24,063 bases of DNA from a virus (taxonomy: Duplodnaviria; Heunggongvirae; Uroviricota; Caudoviricetes), in IMG/VR virus record IMGVR_UViG_2657245124_000006; one strand, written 5' to 3'. The notes beneath the pieces were generated by a model that was not told the origin of the DNA, searched no databases, and saw nothing but the letters and a program-made list of their open reading frames with translations. Below are positions 1 through 11,668 of the stretch, piece after piece. How positions within the stretch are numbered: the first letter of the stretch is position 1; each line of letters opens with the position of its first letter. The position numbers and the translations under genes are program-made.

Positions 1-468
1 TTAATTTAATCGGCTACGATAAAAGTCTCTTGTTATGTTGCGATCGATGACTACTTCACAACGTGCTGAAGGTCTGTAACCCTCACGAGCCTTAATCCAT
101 GGTTCTTCTTTATGAGTCATATCTTCAAGTTGTGCGCCAGAAAAAGCACCGTAGACTTCAAGAACGCCATCAATATGAGCTGCGGTTGCGGCTGGAATGG
201 ATGAAAGATCAAACCCAGGAGTGCGATCTGCAATCGTTATGTCCGAATACAGTGATTTTGTAGAAGAGAACCGGTTATAAATCGCACGGCTTACTGGGCC
301 ATGAATCCAAGCTTGAAACTCCTCATCCACTAACTTTTTATCGAAAAAAGCTAGATACCAAGCATCTGCGTAATAAGCTAATTTTTGCAGCTTCAAATTA
401 GACATAGTTTCACCTGAAGCTAAGATTTTTGTGATGATGTAATCACATAATTGGTTAATATTTATCAT
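1..468 (-). CDS. Panacea-domain (DUF4065) protein, GepA/SocA-like putative antitoxin
   Basis: 155 aa, ATG at 466-468, AGAGGGA ribosome-binding site upstream. The segment 'LKLQKLAYYADAWYLAFFDKKLVDEEFQAWIHGPVSRAIYNRF' matches the DUF4065 signature as I recall it. Stop codon is at window positions 1-3. Confidence 0.7.
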   Translation of the reverse strand: MININQLCDYIITKILASGETMSNLKLQKLAYYADAWYLAFFDKKLVDEEFQAWIHGPVSRAIYNRFSSTKSLYSDITIADRTPGFDLSSIPAATAAHIDGVLEVYGAFSGAQLEDMTHKEEPWIKAREGYRPSARCEVVIDRNITRDFYRSRLN

Positions 469-2642: not shown

Positions 2643-2671
2643 TTGACGATTTCACTGTGCGATCGTATGTT
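2643..2671 (+). promoter_or_regulatory. Putative rightward lytic promoter (pR-like): TTGACG - 17 bp - TATGTT
   Basis: Sigma70-like hexamers with 17-bp spacing in the cI-apl intergenic region. Adjacent short dyads (for example GATCGTATG / GATCCGTAT) may be CI operators. A leftward pL could not be placed. Confidence 0.4.
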
Positions 2672-2743
2672 TATGGTGTTCACAAAATACAAACGATCCG
2701 TATTCGTCCTGATTAATCATCATTAAACGAGGAATGTTGCATC

Positions 2744-4270: not shown

Positions 4271-4337
4271 CCAACTAATGAAATTAATGGCGTAAACCCG
4301 CCGGGCATCCCTTTATCTAAATTCAGGAGAATTGATT

Positions 4338-4571
4338 ATGCGTAATATTGAAACCCTCACGACTAAAACCGGACCGGATGACGCAGGGCTTAATATTTTA
4401 CTGACAGAGGCTCGTCTGGAAGAACGCCGGGCAAGGGCTGAAGCAATGGCTGCCCGCCTTGATAGTCTTGCGTGTCATATCACATCCCGCCAGCTAAACC
4501 ACGTCGAAGCGGCAGAACTGCTGCGTGTGACCGCTGAAGCAATCCAGAACGAAGCGCAGGAGATCCACTAA
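4338..4571 (+). CDS. Hypothetical phage early protein (77 aa)
   Basis: ATG at 4338 ('MRNIETLTTK...') with AGGAGA ribosome-binding site. Track start at 4332 is TTG. Confidence 0.55.
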   Translation: MRNIETLTTKTGPDDAGLNILLTEARLEERRARAEAMAARLDSLACHITSRQLNHVEAAELLRVTAEAIQNEAQEIH

Positions 4572-4798
4572 TGGCTGATGCAATGGATCTCGTACAGCAG
4601 CGCGTTGAAGAAGAACGCCAGCGCCATATCCGTGCTGCCCGTGCCAAAACACCGGGCGTGTCTCGCGTGCTTTGTATTGAATGTGAAGCGCCAATTCCGC
4701 CAGCACGCCGCCGCGCCATTCCTGGAGTGCAGCTTTGCATTACCTGCCAGGAAATCGCAGAGCTGAAAGGCAAACATTACAACGGAGGTGCTGTATGA
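4571..4798 (+). CDS. TraR/DksA-family C4 zinc-finger protein
   Basis: 75 aa; 'CIECEAPIPPARRRAIPGVQLCITC' gives C-x2-C-x17-C-x2-C, the TraR/DksA spacing. ATG at 4571. Confidence 0.8.
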   Translation: MADAMDLVQQRVEEERQRHIRAARAKTPGVSRVLCIECEAPIPPARRRAIPGVQLCITCQEIAELKGKHYNGGAV

Positions 4799-5652
4799 GC
4801 ACCATCCTGAAATGGGCGGGTAATAAAACCGCCATTATGTCCGAACTGAAAAAATACCTTCCTGCTGGCCCGCGACTGGTTGAACCTTTCGCGGGTTCTT
4901 GTGCTGTGATGATGGCGACGGATTACCCCAGCTATCTGGTTGCGGATATTAATCCTGATTTAATCAACCTCTATAAAAAGATTGCCGCTGATTGCGAAGC
5001 GTTTATATCTCGTGCCAGAGTTTTATTTGAGGAAGCAAACAGTGAGCTGGCTTATTACAACATAAGACAGGAGTTTAATTACTCAACTGAAATTACTGAT
5101 TTCATGAAGGCGATATATTTCCTGTATCTCAATCGTCACGGTTACCGTGGTTTATGTCGCTATAACAAGAGCGGGCATTTCAACATTCCCTACGGTAATT
5201 ATAAAAATCCGTATTTCCCTGAAAAAGAAATTCGCGCATTTGCAGAGAAAGCCCCGCGGGCAACGTTTATCTGCGCCAGCTTTGATGAAACGCTGGCGAT
5301 GTTGAAGGCGGGGGATGTGGTGTATTGCGATCCGCCGTATGACGGTACGTTTTCCGGCTATCACACTGATGGTTTCACTGAAGATGACCAGTATCACCTG
5401 GCATCCGTTCTTGAACATCGGTCATCAGAAGGTCATCCGGTCATTGTTTCTAACAGTGACACATCCCTGATTCGTTCGCTGTATCGCAATTTCACTCACC
5501 ACTACATCAAGGCAAAACGCAGCATCGGCGTGTCGGCTGGCGAGAGTAAATCTGCAACAGAAATCATTGCTGTTTCCGGGGCGCGCTGCTGGGTGGGATT
5601 TGATCCTTCGCGTGGCGTGGATAGTTCTGCTGTGTACGAGGTGCGTGTATGA
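4795..5652 (+). CDS. dam: DNA adenine N6-methyltransferase, Dam (D12) family
   Basis: 285 aa from ATG at 4795 (GGAGG ribosome-binding site). Motif I-like '[10 protein letters not shown]' and catalytic 'DPPY' ('YCDPPYDGT'). Start overlaps the upstream stop (ATGA); stop overlaps the repA start. Confidence 0.88.
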
Positions 5653-8063
5653 GTCATGCCGATATGAGCGACTCTAGCGGCTTTAACGAGGCCGCTGCAG
5701 CATTTTCATGGAACGGCCCGAAAAAGGCCATAAACCCTTATCTGGACCCGGCGGAAGTTGCGCCGGTTTCTGCGCTTTCAAACCTGATCACTCTGTATGC
5801 TGCCGATAACGAGCAGGAACAGCTGCGCCGCGAGGAATTGAGTGAACAGGTCTGGGAGCGTTATTTCTTTAATGAATCCCGTGATCCTGTCCAGCGCGAA
5901 ATGGAGCAGGATAAGCTCATTAGTCGGGCAAAGCTGGCGCATGAGCAGCAGCGTTTTAACCCGGACATGGTCATTCTGGCGGACGTCAGCGCCCAGCCCA
6001 CCCACATCAGCAAGCCGCTGATGCAACGTATCGAATACTTCAGCAGCCTGGGCAGGCCAAAGGCTTATTCCCGCTATTTGCGTGAGACGATTAAGCCATG
6101 TCTGGAGCGACTGGATTGTGTACGCGACAGTCAGCTATCTACTTCTTTCCGTTTTATGGCAAGCCATCAAGGGCTGGAGGGCCTGCTGATCCTGCCTGAA
6201 ATGAGTCAGGATCAGGTGAAACGCCTGTCCACCCTGGTAGCTGCGCATATGAGCATGTGTCTTGAGGCCGCTTGTGGTGATTTGTATACCAACGATGACG
6301 TAAAGCCAGAAGAAATCCGCAAGACATGGGAAAAGGTGGCAGCGGAAACCCTGCGTCTGGATGTTATCCCGCCTGCGTTTGAGAAACTTCGTCGGAAAAG
6401 AAACCGCCGCAAACCTGTGCCCTATGAACTCATACCGGGTTCGCTGGCACGTATGCTTTGCGCCGACTGGTGGTATCGAAAATTGTGGAAGATGCGTTGC
6501 GAATGGCGGGAAGAGCAGTTGCGTGCTGTCTGTCTGGTCAGCAAAAAAGCATCTCCCTATGTCAGCTATGAAGCCGTGATGCATAAACGTGAGCAGCGCC
6601 GCAAGTCGCTGGAGTTTTTCCGTTCTCATGAACTGGTGAACGAAGACGGAGACACGCTGGATATGGAAGATGTGGTAAACGCCAGCAGCAGCAACCCGGC
6701 ACATCGCCGCAATGAGATGATGGCCTGCGTTAAAGGTCTGGAGCTTATCGCGGAAATGCGCGGTGACTGCGCCGTTTTCTACACCATCACATGTCCGTCA
6801 CGTTTCCATTCCACGCTCAATAACGGCAGGCCCAACCCGACCTGGACAAATGCGACGGTAAGACAAAGCAGCGATTATCTGGTCGGCATGTTTGCTGCAT
6901 TTCGTAAGGCGATGCACAAAACCGGGTTGCGCTGGTATGGCGTACGGGTGGCTGAGCCGCACCATGACGGTACTGTGCACTGGCATCTCATGTGTTTCAT
7001 GCGCAAAAAAGACCGCCGCGCCATTACTGCATTGTTGCGTAAGTTTGCCATCCGTGAAGACCGCGAGGAGCTGGGCAATAACACGGGCCCACGCTTTAAG
7101 TCTGAGCTGATAAACCCACGCAAAGGAACGCCGACAAGCTACATCGCAAAATACATCAGTAAGAACATTGACGGGCGTGGTCTGGCTGGCGAGATCAGCA
7201 AGGAAACGGGTAAATCCCTGCGTGATAACGCCGAATACGTTAATGCCTGGGCGTCTCTGCATCGTGTTCAGCAGTTCCGCTTCTTTGGTATTCCGGGGCG
7301 CCAGGCTTACCGTGAACTGCGATTGCTGGCTGGTCAGGCGGCAAGACAACAGGGTGACAAAAAAGCAGGTGCGCCGGTACTGGATGATCCGCGTCTTGAT
7401 GCCATCCTGGCTGCTGCTGATGCTGGTTGTTTTGCCACCTACATCATGAAGCAGGGCGGCGTACTGGTTCCCCGCAAATATCACCTTATCAGAACAGCTT
7501 ATGAAATTAACGAAGAGCCGACTGCCTATGGCGATCACGGTATTCGTATTTATGGCATCTGGTCACCCATTTCAGAGGGCAAGATCTGCACTCATGCAGT
7601 GAAGTGGAAAATGGTTCGTAAGGCCGTTGACGTTCAGGAGGCGGTAGCCGACCAGGGCGCTTGCGCCCCTTGGACTCGTGGCAATAACTGTCCCCTTGCT
7701 GAAAATTTGTACCAACAAGGGAAAGACAAATCAGCTGATGGGGGCTCCAGAACGGACATTACCCGCATGGATGACAAGGAATTGCACGATTACCTGCACA
7801 GTATGAGCAAAAAAGATCGCCGGGAGCTGGCAGCAAGGTTGCGCTTGGTGAAACCGAAACGGCGTAAAGACTACAAACAGCGAATTACAGATCATCAGCA
7901 TCAGCAGCTCGTCTATGAACTGAAGTCCAGAGGATTTGATGGCAGCGAGAAAGAAGTCGATTTGCTCCTTCGCGGTGGCAGTATTCCGTCAGGAGCAGGC
8001 TTGCGTATCTTCTATCGGAACCAGCGTTTGCGGGAAGATGATAAGTGGCGGAACCTGTATTAA
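5649..8063 (+). CDS. A: Replication initiation protein, P2 gpA-like rolling-circle HUH endonuclease
   Basis: 804 aa. HUH-like 'VHWHLMCF' and two-tyrosine motif '[12 protein letters not shown]'. Position matches P2 gene A. Confidence 0.85.
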
Positions 8064-8155
8064 TTACGCGGGTTAACAATTCGTGCTCTTAATAATACCA
8101 GGCATATCAGGCTGATGAACGTAAAAAAACGTTTTACATCAGTAAGATTATTATA

Positions 8156-8175
8156 TACTGTAAATATAAACAGTG
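8156..8175 (+). promoter_or_regulatory. LexA box (SOS operator)
   Basis: TACTGTAAATATAAACAGTG: CTG-N10-CAG with AT-rich centre, 17/20 match to TACTGTATATATATACAGTA. A TTTACA -35-like hexamer lies just upstream. It is 42 bp before the 8217 start. Confidence 0.65.
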
Positions 8176-8216
8176 GTTATGTATACAGCATTTCTTGTGG
8201 TGTCATAGGAGGAAAG

Positions 8217-8405
8217 ATGCAGGACTATTTTTTGGAGTCTTTGAAGCTCCAGCGCATTGATTTTTTTCTTAAGCTTGTAGCGGCTAGTGAGTGTAGTGAT
8301 GAAGAGAAGGGGCTGGCTTTGCAGTGGGTTTCTGAACTAACAGATGAACTCATGGCAAAAATCAGAACCCACGAATACAACCGCTCAATGGATGTCATCA
8401 GTTGA
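8217..8405 (+). CDS. Small hypothetical protein (62 aa), first gene of the SOS module
   Basis: ATG at 8217 with GGAGGAAAG ribosome-binding site. The track ORF from 8115 would read through the promoter and LexA box. Confidence 0.5.
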   Translation: MQDYFLESLKLQRIDFFLKLVAASECSDEEKGLALQWVSELTDELMAKIRTHEYNRSMDVIS

Positions 8406-8415
8406 GGTGACTTTT

Positions 8416-8649
8416 ATGCGCATTGAAATAATGATCGATAAAGAGCAGAAGATTAGCCAGTCTATCCTGGACGCCCTTGAATCCGAGCTTTACCGCAATC
8501 TGCGCCCCCTGTATCCCAAAACGGTAATTCGTATCCGCAAAGGTAGCTCTAACGGTGTGGAACTGACCGGACTGCAACTGGACGAAGAAAGAAAACAAGT
8601 GATGAAAATTATGCAGAAGGTGTGGGAAGACGACAGCTGGCTGCATTAA
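8416..8649 (+). CDS. dinI: DinI-family protein
   Basis: 77 aa from ATG at 8416 (GAGGTGA ribosome-binding site). 'MRIEIMIDKEQ...LDALESEL...ERKQVMKIMQKVWEDDSWLH' aligns with E. coli DinI as recalled ('MRIEVTIAK...IDALAGEL...DKQRISEILQETWESADDW'). Confidence 0.85.
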   Translation: MRIEIMIDKEQKISQSILDALESELYRNLRPLYPKTVIRIRKGSSNGVELTGLQLDEERKQVMKIMQKVWEDDSWLH

Positions 8650-8915: not shown

Positions 8916-9446
8916 TTAACCTTGTATAGTTATTTGAATATTTTCTTCATTGACACCAAAGTATAGGGCTAGCCCTGCTTTTGCCTCCTGAAGTGTTAAC
9001 GGCTTAACTACATTTTCTTCTTCTTCTTCGTACTCATCACCCGCTTGATCGACAATCGAATTAGTCGGGGTTAATTTTGGAAGAGCTTTAAATTCCAACT
9101 TGTCAGCCTCAATGCCAATGTCTTTGAGGTTGCGATAAGAAACGGGATTCCGATTGCCATCCCATTGTCCTGGGATGTCAATTTCAGCATAAGAATTGAT
9201 GTTTATGATCCAGCGTTTAGGGTTTTCTGGAGCCCTGCTTACTCCCGAGATTCGACCGATCATAAAAGCATGATGATGTTTTGCTTCTTGTGATCCCCAG
9301 TCCTTTCTCGAATTTTGTACACAAACTAAATATTCGTGCTTAGCTGCATGGCTGGCGTCAAGTCTCCATGCTTGGCTTCCCCCTGTGTTCAAAATCTCTG
9401 TTAAACCACGAGCAGTAAGTACAGTAATACAGTTGGTAGTAGCCAT
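8916..9446 (-). CDS. Uncharacterised 176-aa protein, cargo gene at the phage right end
   Basis: ATG at 9444-9446, no competing frame, AT-rich. Acidic patch 'DEYEEEEEN'. I recognise no family. Transcribed divergently from the OLD-like gene. Confidence 0.6.
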   Translation of the reverse strand: MATTNCITVLTARGLTEILNTGGSQAWRLDASHAAKHEYLVCVQNSRKDWGSQEAKHHHAFMIGRISGVSRAPENPKRWIININSYAEIDIPGQWDGNRNPVSYRNLKDIGIEADKLEFKALPKLTPTNSIVDQAGDEYEEEEENVVKPLTLQEAKAGLALYFGVNEENIQITIQG

Positions 9447-9763
9447 TGAATTGTGACCCCGTCTTTTTTAGAGAAATACTATTGATGAATGTAGTTTACG
9501 TATTTTTTTATTGAGTAGTCAAGTTAGTATTCTGCTCGTTATTGGCTGTTTTTTGAGTGTTGTGAGTTAGTACTTTGTGTAGTACCTCTTGGTTTATGAG
9601 GGTTAAATCTAAGTTATGACAAAGGGAGGCAGGGGGAACGCGCAGCGCAAGGTGTACAGGAGGCCATAAGGACTCACTTGAAGTAAGAAAAGATCGATAA
9701 AGCAACAATGCATGTCTATGCCGCATGAATTCGCATGATCGTTTGAGGATCGTTTTAGCTGAG

Positions 9764-9791
9764 GCCCGCTAGGAATGGCGGGCTTTTGTTT
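9764..9791 (+). terminator. Rho-independent terminator
   Basis: GCCCGC - TAGGAATG - GCGGGC followed by TTTTGTTT. U-tract is on the + strand only. Confidence 0.6.
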
Positions 9792-9916: not shown

Positions 9917-9982
9917 AATAATGCAAATTATTGAGTCCCATTAGTTCAAAACTTAGGGATATCTTATGTGAAAGGAGGTTAT

Positions 9983-11668
9983 ATGTTAGATAAATTGATT
10001 TTTAATTCAGGAAGTAATCCAACATCTAAATCTTCATTATCGGTTGACTTGACTCCATTGACAATTTTTGTGGGGCCGAATAATAGTGGTAAATCTAGAG
10101 CTTTAATCGATATAGAAAATCAACTGACAACCCGAAATGCAGCGCAGGGAGAAGTAATAAAACAGATATTAATCAAACCACTTTCTGAGGATGAAGCAAA
10201 AAAGGAAATTGAATCTTTACAAGTTGAGCCAAACCAGGATGAAAAGCATGCGGGGCATGTTGTTTTATCTAGGCTAAACCTCCGTGGTGAAGGAATATCT
10301 AGGATTCTAGTGTATTTGGATGGAATGTTAAGAGAATTCCAGCAACCCAATGAATTCAATCGGGAGCATCTATATCAATATTACTCGTTGCTGACTCTAA
10401 GGTTGGATGGTAGAAGTCGACTTTCCTTAACTTCAAGTCAAGGTTCATCCGATTTACAAGGAGAACCTACGAATAACCTTTCATTTCTTTTTAAAAATAA
10501 TAAAGCAAGGATGGAGCTAAGAGATATCGTTTTTGATGCTTTCGGGAAGTATCTTGTTATTGATCCAACAAATATAGGTTATCTTAGAATTCGTCTTTCT
10601 GAGCGCGCTCCTGAGACTGAACAAGAAGAAAGAGGTTGGGATGAAAAGTCAGTGCTTTTTCATTCAAAAGCGTCATTGATTACAGAGGCTAGCGATGGTG
10701 TTAATGCTTTTGTTGGGATGATGATTTCGCTGATAGTTGGCTCACCAAAGGTGACTCTAATTGATGAGCCGGAAGCTTTTTTACATCCATCCTTATGCTC
10801 AAAGTTAGGAAAGGAAATATCTAGGATTAGTGCTCATAGTAATAAAAATGTGTTTATTTCAACGCATAGCGCTAATTTTTTAATGGGTTGTGTTCAAGGT
10901 AAAGTGCCATTGAATATAGTTAGGCTTACTTTTGATGGTAAATCTGGTACGTCTAGATTACTAACAAAGGAACAATTGACGCCGCTCATGAGAAATCCGT
11001 TATTAAGATCTATTGGTGTGCTAAACGCATTGTTTTATAATTACGTTGTCGTTACTGAAGCGGATGCAGATAGGGCATTTTATCAAGAGATTAATGAGCG
11101 CTTATTGGCTGCTGGAGATCCTCGGGGTATTGAGGGATGCCTGTTTTTGAATGCTCAAAACAAACAAACTGTTTGGGATATAGTAAAACCCCTTCGTGAG
11201 CTAGGTATTCCCTGCGTTGGAGTGGTAGATATCGATATATTGAAGGAGGGAGGAGTTGTATGGAAAAAACCAATGCTTGGAGCTTTTTTTCCAGAAATGA
11301 AGCATGAAACTTTAGGTTTGGAAAGACAAAAGCTTTTTCAAGCCTTCAAAAATACGAATAAAAATATGAAGACAGATGGGGGCCTCTCCTTGTTATCGGG
11401 TTCAGATAAAACCGCCTGCTCTGAGTTTTTTAAATCCCTTTCAGATTATGGGGTTTTTGTCGTTCCAACGGGCGAGATCGAGTCTTGGTTGCAAAATCTT
11501 GAAATAGGTCGAGGAAAGAATACTTGGTTAACAAGTATTTTCGAGAAGATGGGGGATGATCCTAATGATGAATCATATGTGAAGCCATCTGAAGGTGATG
11601 TTTGGGATTTTATTGGGAATATAAAGCACTGGTTGGTTAACCCTGAAAGGAAGGGTATTCCCGAGTGA
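9983..11668 (+). CDS. OLD-family / AbiL-like predicted nuclease (ABC-type ATPase plus C-terminal Toprim-like domain)
   Basis: 561 aa from ATG at 9983 (AGGAGG ribosome-binding site; track start at 9968 is GTG). Walker A 'GPNNSGKS', Walker B/D-loop 'VTLIDEPEAFLHPS', H-loop-like 'ISTHSAN'. C-terminal 'VVVTEADAD' and 'VGVVDIDIL' fit a Toprim E...DxD pattern. Very AT-rich. Confidence 0.8.
   Translation: MLDKLIFNSGSNPTSKSSLSVDLTPLTIFVGPNNSGKSRALIDIENQLTTRNAAQGEVIKQILIKPLSEDEAKKEIESLQVEPNQDEKHAGHVVLSRLNLRGEGISRILVYLDGMLREFQQPNEFNREHLYQYYSLLTLRLDGRSRLSLTSSQGSSDLQGEPTNNLSFLFKNNKARMELRDIVFDAFGKYLVIDPTNIGYLRIRLSERAPETEQEERGWDEKSVLFHSKASLITEASDGVNAFVGMMISLIVGSPKVTLIDEPEAFLHPSLCSKLGKEISRISAHSNKNVFISTHSANFLMGCVQGKVPLNIVRLTFDGKSGTSRLLTKEQLTPLMRNPLLRSIGVLNALFYNYVVVTEADADRAFYQEINERLLAAGDPRGIEGCLFLNAQNKQTVWDIVKPLRELGIPCVGVVDIDILKEGGVVWKKPMLGAFFPEMKHETLGLERQKLFQAFKNTNKNMKTDGGLSLLSGSDKTACSEFFKSLSDYGVFVVPTGEIESWLQNLEIGRGKNTWLTSIFEKMGDDPNDESYVKPSEGDVWDFIGNIKHWLVNPERKGIPE

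What the first reader, a model, noticed from the sequence alone, without database searches (positions are those of the whole stretch)
4795..5652. Orphan Dam-family methyltransferase in the early operon
A D12-class adenine methyltransferase with the DPPY motif overlaps the TraR-like gene upstream and repA downstream, with no restriction endonuclease partner nearby. It could protect phage DNA from restriction or affect methylation-dependent regulation.
Basis: partly seen in the sequence, partly recalled or inferred. Interest (0 to 1): 0.4.

Follow-up and report, generated by a model that had tools for sequence, protein, structure and literature searches.

The report
Orphan Dam methylase of a P2-like prophage
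This is an ordinary, already annotated DNA adenine methylase gene that many P2-like prophages of E. coli and its relatives carry just upstream of their replication gene, probably to methylate their own DNA as it is copied.

Summary
Window 4795-5652 (+) encodes a 285-aa D12/Dam-family N6-adenine DNA methyltransferase. It has motif I (EPFAGS) and motif IV (DPPY) and sits behind a strong ribosome-binding site. ATGA overlaps join it to the TraR/DksA-like gene upstream and to the P2-type replication endonuclease gene A downstream.

No restriction endonuclease is present. The window is a Fels-2/RE-2010-like (Felsduovirus, P2/186-type) prophage in an E. coli chromosome. The dam-A block occurs in about 1,300 of 5,426 complete E. 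coli genomes and is annotated "DNA adenine methylase" everywhere.

The protein is 45% identical to E. coli Dam. It keeps six of the seven GATC base-contact residues and is under purifying selection.

In 72 of 72 related prophage loci across Enterobacterales, dam is followed by gene A. When another gene identified by a family match sits between them, it is also a DNA-modification gene: a C5-cytosine methylase, a PAPS-reductase-like gene or a DpdA-like gene. It is never a nuclease.

This favours self-protective methylation of replicating phage DNA. I found no sequence evidence for GATC-based regulation. Specificity and role are inferred; I found no direct assay of this clade.

Verdict: already known, low interest.

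The parts
4795..5652 (+). dam: 285-aa orphan Dam-family (D12, alpha-class) N6-adenine DNA methyltransferase
   Evidence: PF02086 at E=3.3e-76. TIGR00571 at 319 bits, cut-off 115. E. coli Dam structure 2G1P at E=4.5e-72. 45% identity to E. coli Dam. RefSeq WP_001710110.1 'DNA adenine methylase'.
4784..4790 (+). Shine-Dalgarno sequence GGAGGTG for dam, inside the 3' end of the TraR-like gene
   Evidence: Read directly from the sequence.
4882..4899 (+). Motif I (EPFAGS, aa 30-35), AdoMet-binding loop
   Evidence: Invariant across the clade and aligned with E. coli Dam EPFVGAGS.
5140..5205 (+). Target-recognition beta-hairpin (aa 116-137), aligned with E. coli Dam residues 118-139. Includes Y117, R118, L120, R122 and P132; Y136 follows.
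   Evidence: Alignment to 2G1P. Residue roles are taken from PMC4417163. Conservation across the clade is shown.
5329..5340 (+). Motif IV DPPY (aa 179-182), catalytic loop. The codons GAT CCG themselves contain a GATC site.
5575..5649 (+). Clade-specific C-terminal tail (aa 261-285) with a retained [W/F]xGxD...GxD motif. It is absent from E. coli Dam.
   Evidence: W266, D270 and D276 are invariant among 28 relatives of at least 70% identity. The rest of the tail evolves fast.
4571..4798 (+). Upstream TraR/DksA-type C4 zinc-finger gene. Its stop overlaps the dam start (ATGA).
   Evidence: PF01258 and TIGR02419.
5649..8063 (+). Gene A: P2-type rolling-circle replication endonuclease. Its start overlaps the dam stop (ATGA).
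   Evidence: PF05840 at E=6.5e-128. It follows dam in 72 of 72 related loci.
2643..2671 (+). Candidate early lytic promoter (pR-like: TTGACG-17-TATGTT) next to the divergent cI gene. This is the presumed start of the operon that contains dam.
   Evidence: Consensus scan only. No strong terminator-like site lies between it and dam. Its function is inferred by analogy with phage 186.
2049..2618 (-). cI repressor (186 type), expected to keep the dam operon silent in the lysogen
   Evidence: PF07022 and PF16452. RefSeq annotation.

Best explanation
The gene encodes an active, stand-alone Dam-family N6-adenine DNA methyltransferase that most probably methylates GATC.

It lies in the early lytic operon of a Fels-2/RE-2010-like (P2/186-type) prophage. 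The cI repressor should keep it silent in the lysogen. After induction or infection it is made together with the TraR-like protein and the replication initiator gpA, to which it is translationally coupled.

When rolling-circle replication produces many phage genomes, the small pool of host Dam becomes limiting. The phage enzyme makes up the shortfall, so progeny DNA is packaged fully methylated. That would protect it from methylation-sensitive nucleases that cut unmethylated or hemimethylated GATC: MboI/DpnII-type restriction enzymes in the next host, and MutH in the present one.

Shown here: family membership, intact motifs, conserved GATC contact residues, purifying selection, orphan status, and the conserved position in front of gene A.

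Inferred: GATC specificity, timing of expression, and the protective role.
For: Family and integrity: PF02086, TIGR00571, and best solved relatives E. coli Dam, DpnM and T4 Dam. All three of those enzymes methylate GATC; this is from the literature and my own knowledge.

GATC contacts: the E. coli Dam base-contact residues K9, Y119, L122, R124, P134 and Y138 (PMC4417163) are conserved as K6, Y117, L120, R122, P132 and Y136. The one difference is N120 to R118. That position also varies in GATC-specific T4 Dam (Ser) and in other P2-like Dams (Asn/Gly).

Selection: dN/dS is 0.05-0.19 against ten relatives; an eleventh pair was uncomputable because dS was saturated.

Orphan status: the best PADLOC model is the orphan MTase class. 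No endonuclease is in the prophage.

Linkage to replication: dam is followed by a gpA homologue in 72 of 72 loci from many genera of Enterobacterales. This holds even where Dam identity falls to 49% and gpA identity to 31%. The junction is direct in 47 of them, usually a 4-nt overlap.

Same slot in relatives: it additionally holds a C5-cytosine methylase, a PAPS-reductase-like gene or a queuine-tRNA-ribosyltransferase/DpdA-like gene. The position therefore looks like a DNA-modification cassette.

GATC is not avoided in the phage: 84 sites observed against 82.7 expected, as expected for DNA that is normally methylated.

Literature: host Dam is limiting for high-copy DNA, and phage Dams are regarded as anti-restriction functions (bioRxiv 10.1101/2020.06.22.160242). 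Orphan phage methylases that are silent in lysogens and protect only exported DNA are a recognised class (PMC12707154).
Against: I found no assay of this clade, so neither activity nor specificity is demonstrated. The known hosts of this clade (E. coli, Salmonella, Klebsiella) are Dam-positive, so the benefit of a second GATC methylase is quantitative and has not been measured. The in vivo role of even T4 Dam remains unclear (PMC12707154). P2 itself does well without any methylase (PMC3091744). The protein scores below the cut-off of the E. coli Dam equivalog model (283 against 441 bits). It also carries a 5-residue deletion after DPPY and the N120R change, so a modified or relaxed specificity is not excluded. 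Promoter and operon structure rest on a consensus match and analogy with phage 186.
Confidence: 0.6

Rival explanations
1. The methylase is mainly a regulator of the phage's own life cycle. Methylation of particular GATC sites would control replication initiation at ori (inside gene A), packaging, the cI/pR switch or late transcription. The precedents are P1 pac sites and the Dam-dependent excision reported for the related prophage SopE-phi.
For: The linkage to the replication gene is invariant. Two GATC sites (2661, 2695) lie in the cI/pR switch region. Two GATC sites in gene A (5883, 7533) are conserved in 100% and 91% of 22 relatives. P1 needs Dam methylation of pac (PMC12707154). SopE-phi excision is favoured by Dam (PMC7380047).
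Against: No GATC cluster exceeds chance: P=0.72 for the tightest three-site cluster. GATC density in gene A and the early region is near the window average. As a set, the ten GATC sites in gene A are no better conserved than other 4-mers, 0.365 against 0.40. The two conserved sites lie in conserved codons. The slot also takes C5 methylases and DpdA-like genes, which would not serve a GATC-based switch.
Confidence: 0.15
2. The enzyme has a specificity other than, or broader than, GATC. It would then protect against a wider set of restriction systems than host Dam does, which would explain why a Dam-positive host's phage keeps it.
For: It is only 45% identical to E. coli Dam and scores below the equivalog cut-off. 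The clade invariantly carries N120R, R137N and a 5-aa deletion after DPPY. Redundancy with host Dam is otherwise hard to explain. Phage and prophage adenine methylases with relaxed specificity are known (PMC7556043; PMC5778455, listed).
Against: R122 (reads the fourth base pair), L120 and P132 (third base pair), K6 and Y136 (first base pair) and the intercalating Y117 are all retained. The N120 position is variable among bona fide GATC enzymes. The known relaxed enzymes belong to other families.
Confidence: 0.15
3. The methylase acts on the host rather than on the phage. A burst of Dam would over-methylate the chromosome and disturb SeqA sequestration of oriC, mismatch repair or Dam-sensitive promoters to the phage's benefit.
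For: It is co-expressed with a TraR/DksA-like RNA-polymerase-binding factor, another host-directed early function. Dam overproduction has strong physiological effects (PMC5585154 title and abstract). Dam overexpression also modifies other cellular DNA such as retron msDNA.
Against: There is no direct evidence. The neighbours in the same slot in relatives (C5 methylase, DpdA-like) point to modification of phage DNA. The lytic cycle is short relative to the consequences of altered repair.
Confidence: 0.07
4. It is the modification half of an unrecognised restriction-modification or exclusion pair. The nuclease partner would lie elsewhere in the prophage: the OLD-like ATPase/TOPRIM protein (9968-11668) or the unknown ORF at 8916-9446.
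For: A nuclease gene exists 4.3 kb downstream.
Against: The cargo locus is variable. It holds an AIPR protein in RE-2010 and a retron effector in 4LV2017, while dam stays constant. The two genes are in different transcription units with different expected timing. OLD-family proteins are not known to be methylation-sensitive (my own knowledge). No endonuclease adjoins dam in any of 72 loci.
Confidence: 0.03

Closest known systems
Dam of Felsduovirus prophages (Salmonella phage RE-2010/ELPhiS gp10, YP_007003503; Fels-2; Klebsiella phages ST11-VIM1phi8.4 and 4LV2017)
   Same: The nucleotide sequence is 95-96% identical. The length is the same, the gene order is the same (DUF5347, DUF2732, TraR/DksA, dam, gene A) and the 4-nt overlaps are the same. 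This is the same gene in the same kind of phage.
   Different: Only the immunity region and the cargo locus of the surrounding prophage differ. RE-2010 has a P2-type repressor and an AIPR protein where this prophage has a 186-type cI and an OLD-like nuclease.
Escherichia coli Dam (PDB 2G1P, 4GOL and others)
   Same: Same fold family and motif order. It is 45% identical over 260 residues. Six of the seven base-contact residues for GATC are identical.
   Different: It is not the orthologue: it scores below the NF008152 cut-off. It has N120R, R137N, a 5-residue deletion after DPPY and a different 25-residue C-terminal tail. It is phage-borne and expected to be expressed only in lytic growth.
Phage P1 Dam (Dmt) and T4/T2 Dam
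   Same: These are phage-encoded orphan GATC adenine methylases made during lytic growth (PMC12707154).
   Different: P1 methylation is required for pac cleavage. No comparable GATC cluster is seen here. T4 Dam is only about 22% identical.
DpnM (M.DpnII 1, PDB 2DPM)
   Same: Same family, E=5.9e-34. It is GATC-specific.
   Different: DpnM is part of a restriction-modification cassette with a cognate endonuclease. This gene has none.
Mu-like prophage Dam homologue M.EcoMIV of E. coli EC958
   Same: It is a prophage-borne D12 methylase that is transcriptionally silent in the lysogen (PMC4659465).
   Different: It belongs to a different clade (about 24% identity) and a different phage type, a transposable Mu-like prophage.

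Membership tests
D12-class / Dam family N6-adenine DNA methyltransferases (PF02086, TIGR00571) | Profile match above the curated thresholds over the full domain | tested here: met
   PF02086 scores 256.8 bits (cut-off 22) over profile positions 1-253 of 253. TIGR00571 scores 319 bits (cut-off 114.85).
D12-class / Dam family N6-adenine DNA methyltransferases (PF02086, TIGR00571) | Alpha-class motif order: AdoMet-binding motif I (FxGxG) N-terminal, target-recognition region in the middle, catalytic motif IV (DPPY) C-terminal | tested here: met
   EPFAGS at aa 30-35, hairpin at aa 116-137, DPPY at aa 179-182.
D12-class / Dam family N6-adenine DNA methyltransferases (PF02086, TIGR00571) | Residues that read GATC in E. 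coli Dam: K9, Y119, N120, L122, R124, P134, Y138 | tested here: met
   Six of seven are identical: K6, Y117, L120, R122, P132, Y136. N120 is R118, a position that also varies in T4 Dam and other relatives.
D12-class / Dam family N6-adenine DNA methyltransferases (PF02086, TIGR00571) | Catalytic formation of N6-methyladenine at GATC | not testable with these tools
   This needs DpnI/MboI digestion or methylome sequencing of DNA from a dam-negative host. I found no published assay of this clade.
Chromosomal Dam orthologue of Enterobacteria (NCBIfam NF008152 equivalog) | Score above the equivalog cut-off | tested here: not met
   282.9 bits against a cut-off of 441. Identity is 45%. The gene lies inside a prophage, not at the chromosomal dam locus.
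Type II restriction-modification system | A cognate restriction endonuclease gene adjacent to the methylase | tested here: not met
   The neighbours are TraR-like and gpA. No endonuclease is in the prophage or next to dam in 72 related loci. The best PADLOC class is orphan MTase.
Early-operon Dam of Fels-2/RE-2010-like P2-type prophages (Peduoviridae, Felsduovirus) | Synteny (TraR/DksA gene, dam, gene A) with overlapping stop and start codons | tested here: met
   The order and overlaps are identical in RE-2010 and in E. coli strain 1297KP, which matches the 3.8-kb query (window 4300-8100) at 100%. gpA lies downstream in 72 of 72 loci.
Early-operon Dam of Fels-2/RE-2010-like P2-type prophages (Peduoviridae, Felsduovirus) | Expression only during lytic growth, from the cI-repressed early promoter | not testable with these tools
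   There is only a consensus promoter match at 2643-2671 and the adjacent cI gene. This needs RNA-seq or RT-PCR before and after induction.

The most novel reading that the evidence does not exclude
The position immediately upstream of gene A in P2-like prophages is a dedicated, exchangeable DNA-modification slot. It would hold Dam alone, or Dam plus a C5 methylase, a PAPS-reductase-like enzyme or a DpdA-like transglycosylase. Translational coupling to the replication initiator would make modification co-replicational and confined to phage DNA. The clade-specific C-terminal tail of Dam ([W/F]xGxD...GxD) would be a docking peptide for the phage or host replication machinery.
Probability: 0.1. 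Interest if true: 0.4.

Novelty: already known. Interest (0 to 1): 0.12.

Why it matters
It matters little by itself. The gene is a routine annotation found in about a quarter of complete E. coli genomes and in many Salmonella and Klebsiella prophages.

Two modest points may be useful. First, nobody appears to have measured the specificity or the benefit of this very common prophage methylase, although the experiment is easy. Second, its invariant place in front of the replication gene, shared in relatives with other DNA-modifying enzymes, marks a spot in P2-like phages where anti-restriction functions collect. That could help annotate unknown genes found there.

A burst of phage Dam may also be a liability. 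Dam overexpression triggers retron-Sen2 defence by methylating its msDNA.

Tried and rejected
1. AlphaFold2 model from 28 close relatives. Mean pLDDT was 45.7 and pTM 0.43, which is unusable. The alignment was too shallow, and more distant sequences taken from loci may not be submitted. I ran no fold search. Sequence homology to solved Dam structures made it unnecessary.

2. M.EcoMIV of E. coli EC958 looked like a published transcription test of this gene. The locus turned out to be a Mu-like prophage with a different 254-aa Dam (24% identity). It is not the same clade, so I use it only as an analogy.

3. GATC statistics. I looked for avoidance, enrichment, clusters near promoters or ori, and preferential conservation in gene A. 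All were negative.

4. I tested whether the C-terminal tail tracks the gpA subtype, as a docking peptide for gpA would. It does not. The tail occurs with both the ~80% and the ~33% gpA types, and tail-less Dams occur with a 77% gpA. The tail also evolves fast.

5. Literature searches for a direct assay of Fels-2/RE-2010-type Dam found none. Search terms included STM2730, ELPhiS, P2-like prophage Dam and Peduoviridae methyltransferase.

6. The alternative TTG start at 4735 (305 aa) is rejected. It has no Shine-Dalgarno sequence, and the homologues start at the ATG.

Full report
**Observation.** Window 4795-5652 (+) is an intact ORF of 285 codons.
- It matches Pfam PF02086 (D12-class N6-adenine methyltransferase) end to end at E=3.3e-76.
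- It scores 319 bits against NCBIfam TIGR00571, the Dam subfamily, whose cut-off is 115.
- Motif I (EPFAGS, aa 30-35) precedes the target-recognition hairpin (aa 116-137) and motif IV (DPPY, aa 179-182). This is the alpha-class order.
- The start ATG overlaps the stop of a TraR/DksA-type zinc-finger gene (4571-4798) in an ATGA.
- The stop overlaps the start of the 804-codon gene at 5649-8063 in another ATGA.
- That downstream gene is the P2 gpA rolling-circle replication endonuclease (PF05840, E=6.5e-128).
- A GGAGGTG ribosome-binding site lies at 4784-4790. Homologues all start at the same Met, so the mechanical TTG start at 4735 can be discarded.

**Where the window comes from.** A 3.8-kb stretch of the window (4300-8100) is 100% identical to the chromosome of E. 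coli strain 1297KP. There the region is a prophage inserted next to rcdA, and the ORF is annotated 'DNA adenine methylase' (WP_001710110.1).
- The prophage has a 186-type cI repressor, CII and Fil, followed by DUF5347, DUF2732, TraR, dam and A. P2-type portal, terminase, capsid, lysis and tail genes come next.
- Its closest relatives in the phage collection are Klebsiella and Salmonella Felsduovirus-type phages such as 4LV2017, the ST11/ST512 prophages and RE-2010.
- These relatives are about 95% identical. In the annotated records, the gene order and 4-nt overlaps are the same and the dam gene is already annotated.
- The dam-A block matches 1,297 of 5,426 complete E. coli genomes.
- The protein family has more than 6,500 relatives at E<=1e-20 in the large protein collection.

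This is therefore a very common, already annotated gene.

**Orphan status.**
- The flanking genes are not nucleases.
- RefSeq annotates no restriction enzyme in the part of the prophage examined.
- The best PADLOC model is the orphan-methyltransferase class, at 364 bits against 288 for the best type II R-M methylase model.
- The only nuclease nearby is an OLD-like ATPase/TOPRIM protein (9968-11668) in the variable cargo locus next to the portal gene.
- That locus holds an AIPR protein in RE-2010 and a retron effector in 4LV2017 while dam stays constant. The two genes are therefore not a pair.

**Likely activity.**
- The best solved relatives are E. coli Dam (E=4.5e-72), DpnM and T4 Dam, all of which are GATC enzymes.
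- Identity to E. coli Dam is 45%, and the protein falls below the equivalog cut-off. It is a paralogue-like phage lineage, not a recently captured host gene.
- The E. coli Dam residues that read GATC have known roles (PMC4417163). R124 reads the fourth base pair. L122 and P134 read the third. K9 and Y138 read the first. Y119 intercalates.
- All of these are conserved here, as R122, L120, P132, K6, Y136 and Y117. They are invariant or nearly so in the clade.
- N120, which hydrogen-bonds to a base, is Arg here. That position is Ser in T4 Dam and Asn or Gly in other P2-like Dams, so it is not diagnostic.
- Whole-gene dN/dS against ten relatives is 0.05-0.19, so the enzyme is kept functional.
- GATC specificity is thus well supported but inferred. 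I found no published assay of this clade.

**Comparative context.** A scan of one genome per species returned 80 loci in many genera of Enterobacterales.
- In all 72 loci with enough downstream sequence, dam is followed by a gpA homologue. This holds even where Dam identity drops to 49% and gpA identity to 31%.
- In 47 loci the junction is direct, usually the same 4-nt overlap.
- In 7 loci a PAPS-reductase-like gene (PF01507) lies between dam and A.
- In 5 loci the gene between is a C5-cytosine methylase (PF00145). In one further locus that methylase lies just upstream of dam.
- In 2 loci the gene between matches the queuine-tRNA-ribosyltransferase/DpdA-like phage family phrog_887.
- In the remaining 11 loci there is a short unannotated gap of 177-957 nt. 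One gap ORF was scanned and gave only a weak match to an unknown-function family.
- None of the identified inserts is an endonuclease.

The place in front of the replication gene therefore behaves as a DNA-modification slot. This is the strongest argument available from sequence that dam serves to modify phage DNA as it replicates.

**Test of the regulatory alternative.**
- GATC occurs 84 times in the window against 82.7 expected.
- The tightest three-site cluster is what chance gives (P=0.72).
- Density in gene A, which contains the P2-type origin (my own knowledge), and in the early region is near average.
- The ten GATC sites of gene A are on average no better conserved among 22 relatives than other 4-mers, 0.365 against 0.40. 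Two sites (5883, 7533) are well conserved but lie in conserved codons.
- Two GATC sites (2661, 2695) do fall in the cI/pR switch region. Two sites in 160 bp is weak evidence.

Regulation is not excluded. P1 pac methylation and the Dam-dependent excision of the related SopE-phi are precedents. Nothing here points to it.

**Most likely mechanism.**
- cI keeps the early operon silent in the lysogen. This is inferred from a candidate promoter at 2643-2671 and analogy with phage 186.
- After induction or infection, the TraR-like protein, Dam and gpA are translated from one message.
- While gpA drives rolling-circle replication, the phage Dam supplements the limiting host Dam, so that progeny genomes are fully methylated at GATC before packaging.
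- Literature supports the premises. Endogenous Dam is limiting for high-copy DNA, and phage Dams are viewed as anti-restriction functions (preprint 10.1101/2020.06.22.160242).
- Orphan phage methylases that are silent in lysogens and protect only exported DNA are a recognised class (PMC12707154).

The benefit remains unmeasured. The known hosts of this clade (E. coli, Salmonella, Klebsiella) are Dam-positive, P2 itself has no methylase (PMC3091744), and even T4 Dam lacks a clear in vivo role. I put about 0.6 on this account as a whole: above 0.9 for an active Dam-family methylase, about 0.8 for GATC, and about 0.5 for protection as the selected function.

**Small unexplained feature.** The clade has a 25-residue C-terminal tail that E. 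coli Dam lacks.
- It has an invariant W266, D270 and D276 among close relatives.
- It otherwise evolves fast.
- It does not track the gpA subtype.
- The structure prediction was too poor to say anything about it.

**Verdict.** The gene is an ordinary, widely annotated orphan Dam of Fels-2/RE-2010-like P2-type prophages. Novelty: already known. Interest: low (0.12). The only mildly new point is the comparative observation that the position in front of gene A collects DNA-modification genes.

Noticed in passing
L016:4852-5862, L017:4876-5874, L035:4861-5613, L013:4864-5694, L045:4840-5673, L065:4795-5952 (related prophages): In relatives, the junction between dam and gene A holds an extra gene joined by 4-nt overlaps. 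It is a PAPS-reductase-like gene (PF01507, phrog_424) in 7 loci, a C5-cytosine methylase (PF00145) in 5 loci, or a queuine-tRNA-ribosyltransferase/DpdA-like gene (phrog_887) in 2 loci. The position looks like an exchangeable DNA-modification slot.
   Followed up: partly
window 9968-11668 (+): This is an OLD-like ATPase/TOPRIM nuclease (AAA_15/AAA_21 plus OLD-like TOPRIM; PADLOC Old) in the variable cargo locus next to the portal gene. RE-2010 carries an AIPR protein at the same spot and phage 4LV2017 a retron St85 effector.
   Followed up: partly
window 8916-9446 (-): This 176-aa ORF has an acidic stretch, no Pfam or PADLOC match, and matches only phrog_37247, a family of unknown function. It is divergent from the OLD-like gene and may be part of the same cargo module.
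   Followed up: no
window 9692-9790: Three GATC sites lie within 57 bp (9692, 9737, 9748). They are followed by a GC-rich hairpin with a T-run (about 9761-9790) in the long AT-rich intergenic region upstream of the OLD-like gene. The GATC cluster is within chance. The hairpin could end a small transcript.
   Followed up: partly
window 2661-2698: Two GATC sites lie in the cI/pR switch region, one between the -35 and -10 elements of the candidate early promoter. This is weak but is the only place where Dam-dependent control of the switch could be looked for.
   Followed up: no
window 1-468 (-), continuing left of the window: A Panacea/SocA antitoxin-domain protein lies at the prophage end. Just outside the window sits a 251-aa hypothetical protein, probably its toxin partner.
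   Followed up: no
proteins P0009, P0010, P0109 (E. coli): These are Dam fused to a gpD late-control domain (PF02086 plus PF05954, 456-496 aa). They probably come from prophage remnants in which everything between dam and gene D was deleted.
   Followed up: no
window 4795-5652 compared with 5649-8063: dam is lower in G+C than gene A: 47.1% against 53.0% overall, and 48% against 57% at third codon positions. This is consistent with an independently acquired module.
   Followed up: no
window 8115-8649 (+): A short phrog_698 ORF and a DinI-like ORF overlap after gene A, where phage 186 has its LexA-controlled antirepressor Tum (the 186 comparison is my own knowledge). This may be the SOS-induction module of this prophage.
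   Followed up: no
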